A stretch of DNA of 48,163 nt from Candidatus Xenobia bacterium (lineage in GTDB: Bacteria > Vulcanimicrobiota > Xenobia > Xenobiales > QWHO01): positions 1 through 48,163 of the forward strand of contig BTUM01000061.1 in the NCBI GenBank assembly GCA_045863235.1, given 5' to 3'. Shown here one piece after another: positions 6,001-18,000 of the stretch; the stretch's first letter is position 1; every line of letters begins with the position of its first letter. Position numbers: made by a program.

Positions 6001-9000
6001 GAGCTTGTCCGCCCAGCGCCACTCCTGGCGCCCGACGGCATATCCCGAGCGCGGGCTGGCCTCGTCCCGGTCAAGCCTGGCGACGAACTCGTCCGGGAAA
6101 TGAACGAGATATGTGGCCAGGTTTTCGCGTAGCAAAAGATGGCGCTCGAGGGGCACGCGGGCCCTCGTCATCAGCTTGCCGGCGACATCCCAATGGCGAT
6201 CCACAGGCAGAGTGTAAGCGCGGGCCCTGAAAATAGGCTGACCACGGTAGTGTGGCGAGTTCCCAGTCGTCGTGAGGTTTGACAGCAGACGACTTCACTC
6301 CGGAAAAGATTGCAGAGAGGGGGCCTTCAGGGCCTGCCACAGCCACAGCCCCGTCAGTCCTCCGGCCAGCGCGGCCCCGGCCACAGGAAGTCCGCCCAGG
6401 GATCCGAGGAGGGCCACCGCTGCCCCGACACCTGCCCCCAGCATAGTTGACGGCAGGGCTCGCCAGGACAGCTTCTCACAGAAAGTCAGCTGGCGAGTGT
6501 GGACGGTGCACCGGTTGTTCTTCAGGTCCAGTTGGTACCGGGCGTGGAAGTCGTTGGCGCGACCGGCGATCCGCTCGCGCCTCCAGTGGTCGCCGTTCTT
6601 ACACCGGTACGTTCCTCGAGCGCTCCGCTCAGACAAAACCTTGACCCGCTCATGCAAACCTGTCCTGGCATTCACAAATCGGTAATCTTCCCGGACTGGG
6701 GGCTGGATTATTCTGCGGGCATGATGATTCAGATGCGCCCTCTCGAGGGCAAAAAGATAATGATCGACCCCGGCCATGGGGGGCCGGATCCCGGAGCCAT
6801 CGGTCAGGCCGGAGCGGAAGAGGAGGACGTGGCCCTGGCCATGTCCCAGAAGCTCCAGGAGGACCTTACGGCGCTGGGTGCCGAGGTGCGCCTCACGCGC
6901 ACGACCGACAGCGCGGTGCTGCCCGGTGGAAGTAAGTCGGAAGATCTCCAAGAGCGGTGCAATATGTCCAACCGCTGGGGCGCCGACCTGTTCATCAGCA
7001 TGCACTGCAACTCCGCCGAGAATCAGAACGCAGTGGGGACCGAAACCTACCACGCGCGCAACGCCAGCTCCAAGTCCAAGATCGCCGCCCGCCTGGTGCA
7101 GAACCAGACCGGTCAGCTCTTGCCCAACCGCGGAGTCAAGCAGGCCAACTTCCACGTCATCGTGCACACCAACGCTCCCGCCATCCTGGTGGAGACGGCC
7201 TTCATCTCCAACCGGGGCGAGGAGGCCCTGCTGGTGGACAACGGCTTCCAGGATCGCTTTTGCGAGCACGTTGCGGCCGGGGTGGCCAACTACCTGACCA
7301 TGGCCGAGAACATCAAGACGGTGGCTCCTCGCCCCGACCCGGGCGAGATGGACGACGAGTCCAACTGGGATCCGGAAAAGCCCAATCAGGCTGGTCAGGA
7401 GTACCTGCTGGCCGGGTAGGCTGCATTCGAGGCTCACTCCAGAAAGGGCGGTTCGAAAACCGCCCTTTCTGTTTCCGAGAAGGGCCGAGGCACCTGCCAG
7501 GGCCGTAAAATTCGGGCGTAAGCGCCGACCAAACTGCAACGCCGTTGTAGAAGTTCGGCCCCCTACAACACTTCTAGCGGTTGAGCAACAGGTTGAGTGG
7601 GGAACCCGCCGCCGGGAGCGGGGGAGCGGCCGGGCCCGCCTGGGCCTGGAGGGCCGTCATCGCGGTCAGGAGTGCCTCCTGGAGGATGGCCGCCGCCGGT
7701 GAGCCCGTCGAACCAGCGCCCGCACCCGGATAGGGCGAGCCGTTCATGCGCGCTACCATCCCTGTCAGGCCCCGCATGTCCATCATTCCGATCGAGAGAG
7801 CGTTGGCCTGGGCGTTCAGCAACGCCTGGCCCTGAAAGACGGCGCTTCCCATCCAGTCGAAGCCACCGAGCGCGGCGCTGGGCGTATAGTAGGAGTTGGT
7901 GTTGGAAAAGGGCGTGCTTGCACCGATCATCGTCAGAGGTCTCCTTTCCCGGGACCGACCTCCACCCTCAGCATACTCGGTGCTGAGCGGCCAGACCGGT
8001 CCAGCCTGCCACCCACAGCATACTCTCGGCGTGGCGAGCACGGGGAGGGCCAACTGTTAAGAGACTGTGATCGGTGTTAACCTTTGTCGCCTTCCGAATG
8101 CGATTTTCCGGTGGCGAACCCGAGTCAGGGAGCAGCTCCCTGGTCGTGCTCCTTCTTGCGCACCACCACGCCGCCCACGATGAGCGACTCGTCGCGCTCC
8201 TCAACGGTGCGACCCTGGCGGGCCAGCATCTGCTCGAGCACGCCCTCCAGGCTGTCAGACAGCACCCTGGTGCCGATCACGGCCATGAAGTCGTCCATCG
8301 CCTGGGCCAGGGTCAGGTGGGCCAGCCGTCCTCCGGGGGCGCGATGCTCTTGCAGGAAGCCGACCACCCGGGCGCCGTCCTCGGGCAGCAGCACCTCCAG
8401 ACTCTTGAGCAGACGGTCGACCTTGCCCTCCGGGCGACTGGCCTCGGCCAGCACCTCGGCAAGCAAGCTGCTCAGGTCCTCGGCCCTGGCCTCGGGAGTC
8501 CAGCGTCGTGAAACGAGCTCGAGGCGCGAGGCCAGATCCACCCGCACCAGTGGGCTCAGGTTGGCGCCATTGGCGGCCAAAGCCGGCCAGAGCTCGCTGG
8601 CAGCGCTCAAGCCCAGGCGTTGGGTCAGCAGCACCAGGGCCTCGACTGACTGGTTGAGCTCCTTGCTGCCCTCCAGCGGCTCGAGCAGGCGCGCCCCCTT
8701 CAGGCCGGCCGAGAGGTTGCCGGTGGCCACGGTCAACCGGGTGATGAGATCCATCCGATCGCGCAGCTTCTCTTGTGGGCACACCAGGGCGCCGGAGAGG
8801 TCGGCCAGAGTGGGGCGGGCCGCTTCGTAGGCGAGCGAGCCAAGCTGCAGCGAGCGGATGCGCACGCCCGCCTGGTTGACCTGATCGTCGGAGGTGAGGC
8901 GCAGGCGCAATTGAGGAGCGCTCGACAACCCCTGCCCCCGCACATCCCACGATCGGGTGGCAAAGCCCGCGCTGCCGTTGAGGCTGTCGAGCTCGACCCA

Positions 9001-15000: not shown

Positions 15001-18000
15001 TGTTTGGCGATGATCCGACGGGCGGCCTGGCTCGTCATTCGGGTGGATTCGTCCAGGGCTGGCAGCGGTCCCCCTCTCAGGAGCGCGGCCGGAGCCCGCG
15101 CGGGAATGGGTCTGCTTGAGGGTTCTTTCAGAGCGCACCGCTAAGCTGAGTCCATGATCTCCTCGATTCCTGGCATCCGTCTGACCTTTGCGCCCCAGCG
15201 CCCCGTAGCCGCCGCCAGCGACGCGGGGCCGGAGAGCGTGGGCGATCAGGTGCAGATCTCGCCCGGTCAGCCAGCTCAGGTCGGCCCTTACGCCCGGGAC
15301 GCCCGCCAGGTCGCCGTCCTGATCGCCGGAGCTGGCAATGCGGGCCTTACCGCCGCCCTCTACACCGCCCGAGCTCAGCTCGATACCCTGGTGATCGGCT
15401 CACCCTACGGCAGCCAGTTGGCCCAGAGCGCCGACGTGGAGAACTTTCCCGGCTTCAAGCGCTCGACCGGGTTCGAGGTGGTCGAGGCCCAGTACAAACA
15501 GGCCGAGGAGGCAGGCGCCAGGTTTGAGGACGCTCAAATCGTGCGCATCGAGGGCGACAAGCCGCCCTTCCGGGTGCACCTGGACGGCGGCGTCGTGATC
15601 GAGTGCCAGGTCCTGATCCTGGCCACGGGGGCGCGGGCACGGCGCCTGGGGATTCCCGGCGAGCAAGAGTTTTTCGGCCGAGGAGTAAGCACCTGCGCCA
15701 CCTGCGATGGACCCTTCTACAAGGGCAAGAACGTGGTGGTCGTGGGGGGCGGCGACACGGCCGTGGGAGACGCCACTGTGCTGGCCAAGGTGGCCTCCAG
15801 CGTCACGCTGGTCCACCGGCGGGGCCAGCTCAGTGCTGAGAAAGTGTTGCAAGAGCGCCTCGAAAAACTCGTGGATGAGGGCAAGGTCAAGCTGGCCCTC
15901 AACAGCGAGGTTCTGTCCGTGCACGGCAAGACGGACGGCGGCGTGGATTCGATCGAGGTCGCCCACCATCCGCAGGGCAGCCCGGCCCAGAAACTCGCCG
16001 CCAGCGGAGGCGACGCGACCGCGGCCGGGGTCGACCGCTCCCAGCTTCCGACTGACGGGCTGTTCCTGGCGGTGGGTCATCTTCCCAATACCGATTTTCT
16101 CAAGGACAGCTCCGTGCAACTGAATGAGCACGGGCACGTGGTAACCCACGATTTCGTCAGCACCAGCGTCCCGGGCATTCTGGCCGCCGGCGACATGACC
16201 GACGTGCCCTATTACCAGGCCAGCGTCGCCTCGGGCTTTGGTGCCATCGCGGGCCTCAAAGCGCGCGAGCTGATCGAGCAGGGATAGAGCGGCTCGACCC
16301 GGCGCATCTGGCTCTGGCCCCCAGCCGGCATTTCTCGGCCGGCCGCTGATTTTTCAGGTTTTTTTCAGGGTCGACGCATTACAGTGCCGCCAACGTGCGG
16401 GGGGCTCCAGGAGGTGCTTGGTGCGGATCAACCAGGTTTCCCCTCAGCAGTGGCGGCGTCTCGAGGAGTATGCCGAGGCCGCCATCCATATCACGCGGGC
16501 CGGCGTGCGACCGGGCCTGGAGTTTCTCGAGTCCCACGGCAAGAGCATGGGGCACACCCTGGATCTGACCGAGACCCTGAGCGGCACCGACCGCGGCTTT
16601 GCCGCCGGCCTGGGGCTGGCGAACCTGGTGCTGGGCGCGGCCGAGCTCTCCCAGTCGTATCAGGCCCTGTGCGCCGGCGACAAGGTGCGCGGCTACCTCA
16701 ACGCGGCCGGGGGCACGAGCTCGCTGGTGGGCGGTACGGCTCTGGTCTACGCGGCCTGGACCGGCAGCGCGGCCCTGGGCCCACTGGGGCTGACCAACCT
16801 GGGGGCAGCCTCCACCGGCATCGCCGCCGCCGCCGATGGGTTGGAGGACGTGGTGCTGGCCTGCCGGGGCGATCAGGGCAAGCTAGCCACCGGGCTGGGG
16901 GGCCTCAAGGTCGCCTCGGGAGGGGTGTTGCTGGCGGGAGCGATGACCGCCCACCCCACCCTGCAGGCGGCTGGCTCGCTGCTCTACCTGGTAGCAGCGG
17001 GCGGGCAGCACCTGCGGACTCACCTGGCCTGAGGCGCCGGGCTCTGGTCTTGCACAATCTAACGAAACGCGCCGGATCTGCAAGACGCCTTGCTCACGCG
17101 CGCCGCCTTAGAGCGCATCTGGAAAGTCACGCTCTAATATGCTGCGGACCTCCTCGGCCTCGAACGCGCGGTTCGCTTTCCTCAATGCCGCCAGGAGGTA
17201 GAGCAGCGTGCTGCGACGTTCCGCGTGCTCCGGGAAGGCCTCCATGATGGCGCGGGCCTGCTGTAAAAGCCGGATGGCCGCGTCCAGATCTCGACATTTT
17301 CCGGCCACAACCAGGCCGCGCAGTGACTCCAACTCGGCCTCAGCTTCGTCGAGCCGGCCCAGCTTGCGGAGCAGGTCGGCCAGGTTGATCCGGGTGTGGA
17401 TCAGGGCGGGGTGAGCCGGCTCGAGCAGGCCCGCCTGCAGCTCCACCGCCTGGCGCAGGGGCATCCAGGCCTCGGCGTGACGCCGGGCTCGTGCCAGGGA
17501 GCAGGCCAGAGCGTCCAGGCAGTCGGCCAGCTCGAGCGGACTGTCCCGGGCTAGATCGATGGCCTGCTGATGGAGCGCGAAAGGGCTCTGGCCCAGGCGC
17601 TCCTGGCAGCAGGCCTCCAACAAGATAATACTGGCCAGGTCCGGGTGGCGAGCTCCCAGACAGCGGGTCTGGATGGCGCGAGCCCGGGCCAGCAGCTCCA
17701 GGGCTTGCCGGGGGGCACGCTCCACCAGCTCCGAGGCAAGATTCCGCAGCGGCACGACCAGCTCGAAGTGGTCGGGGCCGCTCTTCTCCTCTTCCAGCCG
17801 CAGGGCCTCGCGATGCAGTGCTTCGGCCTCTCGGTGACGCCCCAGGCGGTTGAGCACTGTGGCCCGGTTCCCCGCCAGGGTGGCGGCCTTGCTCCCCTCG
17901 ACTCCCCGCTTCTCCACCTCGTCGTAGACCGCTAGCGATTCCTGGTTGCGATGCATGGCGTAGTAGAGGTCCCCCAGGTCAAGGCGGCTCCCCACACGCG

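What a model noticed while it worked through the whole genome (the two positions that open the first line are those of the whole stretch)
8125..16330. Tandem TTCAG-box promoter defines a ~400-gene, largely leaderless regulon encoding the export-leader proteins
401 genes share the promoter TTCAG-N5-TTTCAG-N10-TAnnnT: an 11-bp-period direct repeat (OmpR/PhoB/SARP geometry) standing in place of a -35 box next to a -10 box. In 218 of them the -10 box ends 6-9 nt before the start codon, so the mRNA would be leaderless. The set is mostly signal-peptide-less, apparently exported proteins plus lipid enzymes and nutrient transporters: one switch for a large export programme. Example here: g05329 and g05331, both at -28.
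Evidence so far: TTTCA-N11-TAnnnT lies upstream of 137 genes against 2-10 for every other spacer from 5 to 19. PWM: 401 genes, 8 in shuffled DNA; 107 sites at exactly -28, 46 at -29, 33 at -31; 159 of 189 reverse-strand hits belong to a divergent neighbour in the set. Shine-Dalgarno in 15 of the 218; hydrophobic signal in 5 of 218 against 1411 of 7460. 90 of 184 export-leader genes carry it; 229 of 401 have the leader or the C-terminal tag. Exact pattern TTTCA-N11-TANNNT-N6-ATG: 36 hits here, 19-42 in 4 of 4 congeners, 3-39 in 16 of 16 f2 genomes, 0-4 in f3; spacer-13 control 0-2 in f1/f2.
(Added by a program. Inside this text positions count along the whole contig: contig position 1 is position 1 of the stretch shown here. 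"Call 12" and the like, gene names such as g00115 and contig names such as C1 are that model's own, and its searches are not shown. The text may have been shortened before it was handed on; [...] marks where a part breaks off. The agent that wrote the report below was given it as the finding of a first reader that could run no searches.)

Follow-up and report, generated by a model that had tools for sequence, protein, structure and literature searches.

The report
Genome-wide SARP-type secretion promoter in Xenobia
About 400 genes of an uncultured Xenobia bacterium share one promoter built like the antibiotic-activator (SARP) promoters of Streptomyces, and they mostly encode signal-peptide-less enzymes and unknown proteins that are probably exported by a flagellum-derived secretion machine whose own genes sit under a second, separate DNA box.

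Summary
The promoter is real: 410 PWM sites (18 in shuffled DNA), 371 genes, 232 with the start codon 6-9 nt after the -10 box. The box replaces the -35 element; RpoD is only missing from this assembly. The best match is the SARP afs box: the upstream repeat TTCAG lies 20 bp before the -10, the sequence and spacing published for the AfsR target afsS. The genome has 20 SARP-domain proteins. One, a REC-HD-TPR-SARP protein, has a near-invariant recognition helix and follows the motif across Xenobia, but lacks AfsR's two base-reading residues; binding is not shown. Two corrections: the motif survives in larger genomes of the family said to lack it, and it is not the only switch. A second 11-bp repeat (about 210 genes) precedes the genes of a flagellin-less, flagellum-derived type III export machine. 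Export of the regulon's proteins is inferred from missing signal peptides, N-terminal leaders and a C-terminal tag. No transcription-start data exist. The scan noted SARP boxes once before, at three Armatimonadota promoters. New variant of a known kind.

The parts
8125..13593 (-). g05329, 1,822-aa protein: Pro/Ser-rich N-terminal leader with a D-x-V-x-L motif, repeated InhA-like MAM / choice-of-anchor J domains, C-terminal V-x-V-G-G-V-x-V-R/K tag; GTG start 6 nt after the -10 box
13600..13632 (-). Promoter of g05329: upstream repeat TTTCAA (13627-13632), downstream repeat TGTCAG (13616-13621), -10 TATGCT (13600-13605); 21.7 bits
14226..15038 (-). Dual-specificity phosphatase gene divergent from g05331; no motif site on its own strand
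15115..15147 (+). Promoter of g05331: upstream repeat CTTGAG (15115-15120), downstream repeat TTTCAG (15126-15131), -10 TAAGCT (15142-15147); 28.8 bits
15154..16287 (+). g05331, thioredoxin-reductase paralogue (377 aa) with a 49-residue N-terminal extension that the 320-aa housekeeping copy lacks; ATG 6 nt after the -10 box
16352..16385 (+). Third site: two perfect TTTCAG repeats; the better -10 (TACAGT) is one base further on; leadered gene 16421-17032 without Pfam match
6211..6243 (-). Site outside the given range: repeats GGTCAG and TTTCAG, -10 TACACT, GTG start 6 nt later (gene 5563-6204)
21932..21964 (+). Weaker site (16.2 bits) before a lytic transglycosylase (SLT) gene with a Met/Gly-rich N-terminus
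25341..25373 (+). Site (22.0 bits) before an NlpC/P60 gene with a Met/Gly-rich N-terminus

Best explanation
The element is an activator-dependent promoter of the housekeeping sigma factor. Two winged-helix domains bind side by side on the two TTTCAG repeats (about -39 to -34 and -28 to -23), take the place of the -35 contact and recruit RNA polymerase to a mediocre -10 box; in about 60% of cases transcription starts at or just before the start codon. The activator is most likely a SARP-domain protein (winged helix plus BTAD), working as AfsR does at afsS. The lead candidate is the conserved REC-HD-TPR-SARP protein at G000:C19:72632-75097(-); several of the 20 SARP paralogues may share the box. 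The regulon is the larger of two programmes linked to a flagellum-derived, flagellin-less type III export system: a second box, probably read by a WalR/PhoP-like regulator, precedes the machine's genes, while this box switches on a large part of its probable cargo (proteases, nucleases, lipid enzymes, leader-bearing copies of cytoplasmic enzymes, many unknown proteins) and uptake systems. Shown here: motif, geometry, leaderless spacing, match to afsS, gene content, distributions.
For: Two repeats with the same substitution profile and no third. None of 182 promoters at +6/+7 has TTG at the -35 position, while 43 other leaderless genes have TTG 17-18 bp before a similar -10. RpoD with a canonical region 4.2 is in a congener. 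In afsS the -35 hexamer is TTCAGC, part of the upstream 11-bp repeat, with T-38 and T-27 needed for AfsR binding (PMC10936776, passages and one section), and its spacer to -10 is 20 bp (PMC11301090, passages). Here TTCAG-N followed by a 20-bp spacer occurs 119 times against 18-47 at other spacers (188 at 9, the downstream repeat), and T stands at those two positions in 329 and 397 of 410 sites. A profile of 11 of the genome's SARP domains matches AfsR over positions 3-252 of 253 at E 1.5e-28; 20 such proteins are in the genome. The candidate has 18 full-length orthologues at 60-99%; its winged helix is its most conserved part (0.84 against 0.52-0.82); the first 12 residues of the recognition helix are identical in 16 of 16 aligned orthologues; it keeps AfsR W74, P79, S91, R94, K95. 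It was found in G067, G073, G077, G081, G095, G037 and G087, which have the motif, and not among the BTAD proteins read from G002, G011, G018, G028, G061 and G069, which show no clear regulon. Cargo: C-terminal tag in 94 of 255 leaderless targets against 70 of 6,628 other genes; leader-bearing thioredoxin reductases carry the box in 2 of 2 cases, housekeeping orthologues in 0 of 14. Machine: flgBC, fliEFGHIJKMNOPQR, flhBA at C27, flgFG, flgJ, fliA at C74; no flagellin, MotA or FlgM found; an 81-aa single-helix protein resembling HrpA pilin lies beside flhA, one copy under this box.
Against: No binding or transcription-start data; the RNA runs were contigs with even cover and show nothing. The candidate has Ala and His where AfsR reads bases with T88 and R92; two other paralogues keep both residues but were not found in the five mid-size genomes that have the motif. 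BTAD copy number correlates with motif count (rho 0.92, 23 genomes) but genome size does as well (0.90) and the genomes are kin. G087 has 6-8 BTAD proteins, the candidate among them, and only 3 sites against 1 control. TTCA repeats in this position are also used by PhoB/PmrA-type regulators (PMC10570014, discussion read), so geometry alone does not single out SARPs. No SARP gene carries the box itself, and 3 of 20 have a target within two genes, no more than the background of 18%. Only 51 of 231 leader-pattern genes carry the box. Export is untested; the genome was 97.6% complete, so absence of flagellin is not proven.
Confidence: 0.55

Rival explanations
1. Same promoter mechanism, but the reader is a classical OmpR/PhoB-family response regulator, most likely the KdpE-like protein at G000:C14:98130-98819(+) with its soluble PAS kinase.
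For: Found in 22 of 22 Xenobia genomes at 70-97% and in 0 of 31 others, which fits the class-wide range of the motif. Recognition helix nearly invariant. Best PDB hit is KdpE, whose box is two T-rich hexamers 5 bp apart (PMC3264566, passages). PmrA boxes replace -35 with the same hexamer-N5-hexamer layout.
Against: Kept at 71-74% in eight small genomes without a clear regulon (20 hits against 10 control over 14 small genomes; 123 against 63 at three mismatches). No motif site near its own genes in the 21 loci scanned, whose reach upstream of the kinase gene was short. No sequence match as close as that to afsS.
Confidence: 0.17
2. The highly conserved WalR/PhoP-like regulator (G000:C4:205130-205825) reads both this box and the second box.
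For: It is the only OmpR-family member shared by all 11 other genomes whose sets were compared, 72-100% identical in 43 of 53 genomes. AfsR and PhoP share targets in Streptomyces (bioRxiv 2023.09.04.556155, passages).
Against: It is present in all other classes with the export system and in the small genomes, where the second box is conserved but this one is not. Hybrid sites with one half of each box are at background (2-3, against 112 and 15 for the pure pairs). No PhoU or PstS was found, so it is not a phosphate regulon.
Confidence: 0.07
3. The group-2 sigma factor (G000:C30:52185-53195, probably the first reader's g03603) reads the promoter, alone or as the sigma used together with an activator.
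For: Not found in five of the six small genomes searched (only the RpoD-size hit; G059 has a second, weaker hit), present in the mid-size ones. Region 4.2 differs from RpoD and region 3 has a basic inserted helix. The -10 boxes have C at the fifth position more often than other leaderless promoters (121 of 182 against 19 of 43, p 0.009). Its gene has the second box upstream in G000, which would give a cascade.
Against: Regions 2.4 and 4.2 vary between families that share the motif. Orthologues at 51-54% occur in G001, G004, G013 and G019, which show 1-5 hits against 0-3 control. Spacers of 10 and 21 bp do not fit a region-4 contact at 17-18 bp, and two like repeats point to a dimer (inference).
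Confidence: 0.08
4. The promoter and a tandem activator are real, but the reader is a regulator family not examined here, or the regulon is a stress or starvation programme whose proteins are not exported by the type III machine (for example released by lysis or vesicles, or kept in the cell).
For: Only the Trans_reg_C, BTAD and sigma-70 families were surveyed. 114 of 182 scanned targets have no Pfam match. Several targets need cytoplasmic cofactors (thioredoxin reductase, uridine kinase, MGDG synthase). The machine's genes are not under this box.
Against: Housekeeping enzymes appear as second copies with 40-75 extra N-terminal residues under this box, which is hard to explain without a targeting signal. 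In 688 kb of loci from other genomes, 9 of 13 strong sites precede a gene with a leader-like N-terminus by eye.
Confidence: 0.13

Closest known systems
SARP activation at the afsS promoter by Streptomyces coelicolor AfsR (PDB 8HVR, 8K60, 8JKE; PMC10936776, PMC11301090)
   Same: Two 11-bp direct repeats over -40 to -19, upstream repeat containing TTCAG with a 20-bp spacer to a suboptimal -10, no usable -35, principal sigma factor; homologous winged-helix plus BTAD domain in the genome.
   Different: About 370 genes instead of a few cluster promoters; non-actinobacterial host; SARP domain at the C-terminus behind REC, HD and TPR domains; both repeats read TTTCAG; mostly leaderless; targets are probable secretion cargo, not antibiotic genes; binding not shown.
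OmpR/PhoB-family class II promoters: pmra-box and pho box (PMC10570014), KdpE box (PMC3264566)
   Same: Hexamer-N5-hexamer repeat replacing the -35 element; within 1-2 bp of the same register.
   Different: Different half-site sequence; none of the 13 OmpR-type proteins in the genome matches the motif's distribution fully; no phosphate-uptake regulon genes found.
Legionella PmrA and CpxR effector regulons (PMC6989116, passages read)
   Same: Winged-helix regulators switch on scattered effector genes of a secretion system, and two regulators share the work, one also covering machine genes.
   Different: About 40 and 30 effector genes there against several hundred here; type IVB there, flagellum-derived type III here; probable SARP reader.
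Flagellar export apparatus and Hrp-type type III secretion
   Same: FlhA and FliI pass the flagellar NCBIfam cut-offs; an 81-aa helical protein resembles HrpA pilin clusters at 0.90-0.91 (23-24% of members carry PF09589).
   Different: No flagellin, MotA or FlgM found; the FlhA orthologue is separate from the 42-52% second copy found in many relatives; late genes are not under a FliA-type promoter by sequence; no translocon identified.
Leaderless TANNNT promoters (Mycobacterium tuberculosis, PMC3898074, search listing only)
   Same: -10 box 6-7 nt before the start codon, no Shine-Dalgarno.
   Different: Here tied to one activator box and to one class of cargo.

Membership tests
SARP-activated promoter | Direct repeats at 11-bp (or 22-bp) period | tested here: met
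   TTCAG-N5-TTTCAG 94 against 0-7 at other spacings
SARP-activated promoter | Repeats overlap -35 and lie just upstream of -10 (afsS: TTCAGC, 20-bp spacer) | tested here: met
   119 at spacer 20 against 18-47; reference values
SARP-activated promoter | No canonical -35, suboptimal -10, principal sigma factor | tested here: inconclusive
   0 of 182 with TTG at -35; which sigma is used cannot be shown from sequence
SARP-activated promoter | A protein with an OmpR-type winged helix followed by BTAD in the genome | tested here: met
   20 proteins; profile matches AfsR and EmbR
SARP-activated promoter | AfsR DNA-contact residues (W74, P79, T88, S91, R92, R94, K95) | tested here: inconclusive
   Conserved candidate keeps five, lacks T88 and R92; two less widespread paralogues keep T88 and R92
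SARP-activated promoter | The SARP binds the box and activates transcription | not testable with these tools
   Needs EMSA, DAP-seq or in vitro transcription
Pho regulon (PhoB/PhoP) | pstS and phoU under the box | tested here: not met
   No PhoU and no PstS found in the genome
OmpR/PhoB-family class II promoter | Hexamer-N5-hexamer replacing -35 | tested here: met
OmpR/PhoB-family class II promoter | A conserved REC-winged-helix regulator with the motif's distribution | tested here: inconclusive
   KdpE-like protein fits the class range but stays in small genomes without a clear regulon
Motile flagellum | Flagellin, MotA stator, FlgM | tested here: not met
   (only an ExbB-like gene beside a TonB-dependent receptor); genome 97.6% complete
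Type III secretion substrates | No Sec signal; flexible Pro/Ser/Thr-rich N-terminus | tested here: met
   8 of 255 hydrophobic N-termini; Pro 9.6% and Ser 8.4% in residues 2-40 against 6.0% and 6.1% in other genes
Type III secretion substrates | Export depends on the apparatus | not testable with these tools
   Needs a secretion assay
Leaderless mRNA | Mapped 5' end at the start codon | tested here: inconclusive
   Only contig-level RNA runs; spacing and lack of Shine-Dalgarno fit

The most novel reading that the evidence does not exclude
Xenobia are unrecognised predators or parasites that converted the flagellar basal body into a protein-injection device independently of known injectisomes, and run it by a two-tier circuit: a phylum-wide WalR-like regulator builds the machine and its helical pilus, and a signal-integrating SARP (receiver, HD-GYP-like and TPR domains) fires about 370 cargo and uptake genes from afs-box promoters, with leaderless translation reserved for the class of proteins that carry the C-terminal tag (94 of 255 leaderless against 5 of 116 leadered targets).
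Probability: 0.3. Interest if true: 0.9.

Novelty: new variant of a known kind. Interest (0 to 1): 0.7.

Why it matters
SARPs are known as activators of antibiotic gene clusters in actinobacteria. A SARP-type promoter used at several hundred scattered genes would make the family a global regulator in a distant, uncultured class. The box is also a practical tool: it picks out the probable secreted proteins of these bacteria from DNA alone, most of them of no known family, and it points to a flagellum-derived export system shared by most classes of the phylum. That gives a testable handle on how Xenobia live, and on how secretion systems arise from flagella. Searches (open-access PMC and bioRxiv only) showed no paper describing this promoter, regulon or secretion system; subscription papers and bioRxiv supplements were not visible.

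Tried and rejected
Motif outside class Xenobia: pattern counts looked raised in AT-rich genomes of other classes, but of 60 sites fetched 32 lay inside open frames and none of the other 28 had a start codon within 10 nt; I treat this as coding-sequence bias. 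Two perfect intergenic sites in G033 remain open. The reversed-pattern control of the search tool does not correct for this. Pho regulon: rejected. FliA as reader: a FliA-like gene is present but the -10 box is of the housekeeping type. MprA-like OmpR clade: matched the first four positive and four negative genomes, but its recognition helix varies. HilA box resemblance: recalled, not confirmed; dropped. RNA evidence: four runs laid, all contigs, even cover including intergenic DNA, no information on starts or expression. GluRS search for taxonomy: uninformative. FlgM-like origin of the leader: no FlgM match in the genome and no FlgM hit among 182 targets. Atlas search with a tag-bearing C-terminal stretch: no usable hit. 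Structure of the 81-aa protein: one long helix, too simple for a fold search. No complex prediction was sent: a SARP-sigma pair would pass by likeness to solved structures. Rows left out: one orthologue with a stop codon in the alignment; four BTAD hits without loci and one partial hit in G002; proteins over 900 aa were cut to 900; one search had a minus-strand bug and is superseded. The two unpublished genomes flagged carry no claim here.

Full report
Setting. The window is the whole of contig C61 of an 8.36-Mb, 65.8% G+C genome. Earlier notes on this genome call it Candidatus Xenobia; titles of close relatives and cluster names say Eremiobacterota, Vulcanimicrobiota or Xenobia. No gene caller was available, so I wrote one (6,999 genes); its start positions are imprecise and tend to cut leaders, which lowers leader counts for genes outside the regulon.

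1. The observation. TTTCA-N11-TAnnnT occurs 171 times against 12-26 at other spacers, with a second peak of 91 at spacer 22. An iterated PWM converges on 410 sites with the shape (T)TTCAG-N5-TTTCAG-N10-TAnnnT; shuffled DNA gives 18. 399 of 407 assigned sites are upstream of a gene; 371 genes lie within 300 nt; 232 sites are 6-9 nt from the start codon, and the start-codon peak at +6 and +7 holds without my gene calls. Shine-Dalgarno words are rare in the close class (12 of 249) and common in the distant class (62 of 122), so the regulon has a leaderless and a leadered part. The window has six sites at 14 bits or more, including the two examples at -28.

2. Range. With one mismatch allowed, the motif gives 136-167 hits in the three genomes of the genus, 28-162 in seven of the sister family and 27-31 in two of another order, against 0-4 for the control. 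In the family said to lack it, five genomes of 3.7-4.7 Mb give 25 hits against 0, and sites sit at -28 before orthologues of G000 targets; fourteen smaller genomes give 20 against 10 and 123 against 63 at three mismatches, which shows no clear regulon. Raised counts in AT-rich genomes of other classes fell apart on inspection. The motif is a feature of class Xenobia and shrinks with the genome.

3. Sigma factor. 43 other leaderless genes have TTG 17-18 bp before a similar -10 box, so housekeeping promoters are conventional; 0 of 182 regulon promoters have it. RpoD is in both congeners searched, with a canonical region 4.2. The group-2 sigma varies in regions 2.4 and 4.2 and occurs in genomes without the regulon. 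Two repeats with the same substitution profile point to a dimer of one domain (inference). A small excess of C in the -10 box (p 0.009) leaves room for the group-2 sigma as partner.

4. Of 13 OmpR-type regulators, two are conserved. The WalR/PhoP-like one is in 43 of 53 genomes at 72-100% and matches a second motif found here (section 5). The KdpE-like one is in 22 of 22 Xenobia genomes and none of 31 others, but stays where the regulon is gone. The SARP family fits better. In the AfsR target afsS the upstream 11-bp repeat contains the hexamer TTCAGC at -38 to -33 and T-38 and T-27 are needed for binding (PMC10936776; passages and the section on DNA contacts read); the spacer to the -10 box is 20 bp (PMC11301090; passages). 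In G000, TTCAG-N with a 20-bp spacer occurs 119 times against 18-47, and T is at the two critical positions in 329 and 397 of 410 sites. The genome has 20 winged-helix-BTAD proteins, most with a receiver domain, homologous to AfsR along the whole domain. One (C19:72632-75097, REC-HD-TPR-winged helix-BTAD, 821 aa) has 18 full-length orthologues among 77 loci returned, a winged helix more conserved than any other part and a helix whose first 12 residues are the same in 16 of 16 aligned rows. It was found in seven further genomes with the motif and not among the BTAD proteins read from six small genomes without it.

5. Two switches. After removing the regulon, the strongest remaining spaced repeat upstream of genes is TGTTAACA at 11-bp period: 362 sites, 211 genes, 6 shared with the first regulon, and no hybrid sites. 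It precedes flgB, the flgE-like gene, the operon with flgFG-flgJ-fliA, the first copy of the helical protein and the group-2 sigma, and is conserved beside the helical-protein gene in other classes. The export genes flhA, flgB and fliK have no first-type site. So the machine and a set of leader-bearing genes follow one box, and most tagged cargo follows the other.

6. The targets. Of 182 of the 371 proteins scanned (those in 60 dense windows), 68 have a Pfam match and 114 none. Matches include peptidases (M48, C11, C1, C26, C92, S51), endonuclease I, RNase II, cytidine deaminase, uridine kinase, DeoC aldolase, acyltransferases, MGDG synthases, lipid desaturases, GDPD, phosphatases, SLT, NlpC/P60, many beta-propellers, MAM-domain proteins, a TonB-dependent receptor and two transporters. 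Hydrophobic N-termini are rare (8 of 255) and the C-terminal tag is common (94 of 255 against 70 of 6,628). g05331 shows the pattern: a thioredoxin reductase with 49 extra residues under the box, while 14 housekeeping orthologues lack it and a leader-bearing copy in G085 has it. The likely exporter is the flagellum-derived apparatus, with no flagellin, stator or FlgM found and a single-helix protein like HrpA pilin beside flhA. Export and a predatory or parasitic use are inferences from composition.

7. Mechanism, step by step. Shown: box, spacing, loss of -35, leaderless layout, afsS match, SARP genes, two regulons, target content. Inferred: a signal through the receiver or HD domain frees a SARP; two SARP domains bind the repeats and hold sigma region 4; RNA polymerase opens the -10 box; mostly leaderless mRNAs give proteins whose leader or tag directs them to the export gate; enzymes act on outside or host material and co-regulated transporters take up the products.

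8. Known or new. The promoter works like an afs-box promoter and meets the sequence tests for one; membership awaits binding data. The closest functional parallel is the Legionella PmrA/CpxR control of about 40 and 30 effector genes (PMC6989116; passages). Searches of open-access papers showed no description of this promoter or secretion system; one Xenobia paper searched for the words flagell-, secretion and predat- had none (PMC11484240). Verdict: real, new variant of a known kind, interest 0.7.

Noticed in passing
G000:C27:54348-79219 and G000:C74:1-3983: Flagellum-derived export locus without flagellin, MotA or FlgM. Its FlhA has orthologues at 65-100% identity in 43 of 44 genomes outside the three most distant families searched, including 2-Mb genomes; many also have a second FlhA at 41-52%.
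   Followed up: partly
G000 genome-wide; for example C27 upstream of flgB: Second 11-bp repeat with the palindromic unit TGTTAACA: 362 PWM sites, 211 genes, often 31-32 nt before a -10 box; conserved next to the helical-protein gene in several other classes; co-distributed with the WalR/PhoP-like regulator. Likeness to WalR and CtrA boxes is recalled, not checked.
   Followed up: partly
L233 (G043:C87) and L202-L231: RpoD and the group-2 sigma of this clade share an insertion of about 35 residues in sigma region 3; the inserted helix is basic in the group-2 sigma.
   Followed up: no
G000:C80:28012-29436, C3:26973-28175, C1:377631-378854, C106:14866-16857, C107:13658-15829: Five proteins with only the cytoplasmic part of FlhA; possible sorting adaptors for the many cargo proteins.
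   Followed up: no
G000:C27:55986-57006 and four other places: Three tandem, identical copies of the 81-aa helical protein beside flhA, plus four dispersed paralogues; the first copy has the second box upstream, the third has this motif.
   Followed up: partly
G000 genome-wide: The C-terminal tag (V-x-V-G-G-V-R-V-R/K-x-R, 8-12 residues from the end) is almost confined to leaderless targets: 94 of 255 against 5 of 116 leadered (p 6e-13).
   Followed up: partly
G000, several contigs: Second copies of cytoplasmic enzymes with 38-75 extra N-terminal residues under this promoter (thioredoxin reductase, MGDG synthase, GDPD by Pfam; others recognised only by likeness to a paralogue).
   Followed up: partly
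window 13700-13800 and 13940-14100: Two pairs of direct repeats (about 42 and 50 bases) in the 630-base gap between g05329's promoter and the phosphatase gene; REP-like or mobile remnants.
   Followed up: no
window 21930-22779 and 25340-26143: An SLT and an NlpC/P60 gene under this promoter begin with long Met/Gly/Pro-rich low-complexity stretches.
   Followed up: no
G033:C15:140911 and C62:32880: Two perfect intergenic sites in a genome of another class that has six BTAD proteins, three of them like the candidate; both precede Ser/Glu-rich N-termini.
   Followed up: partly
L380:3137-4795: One regulon protein has a weak, sub-threshold match (E 3e-5) to the ATLF zinc-metalloprotease family.
   Followed up: no
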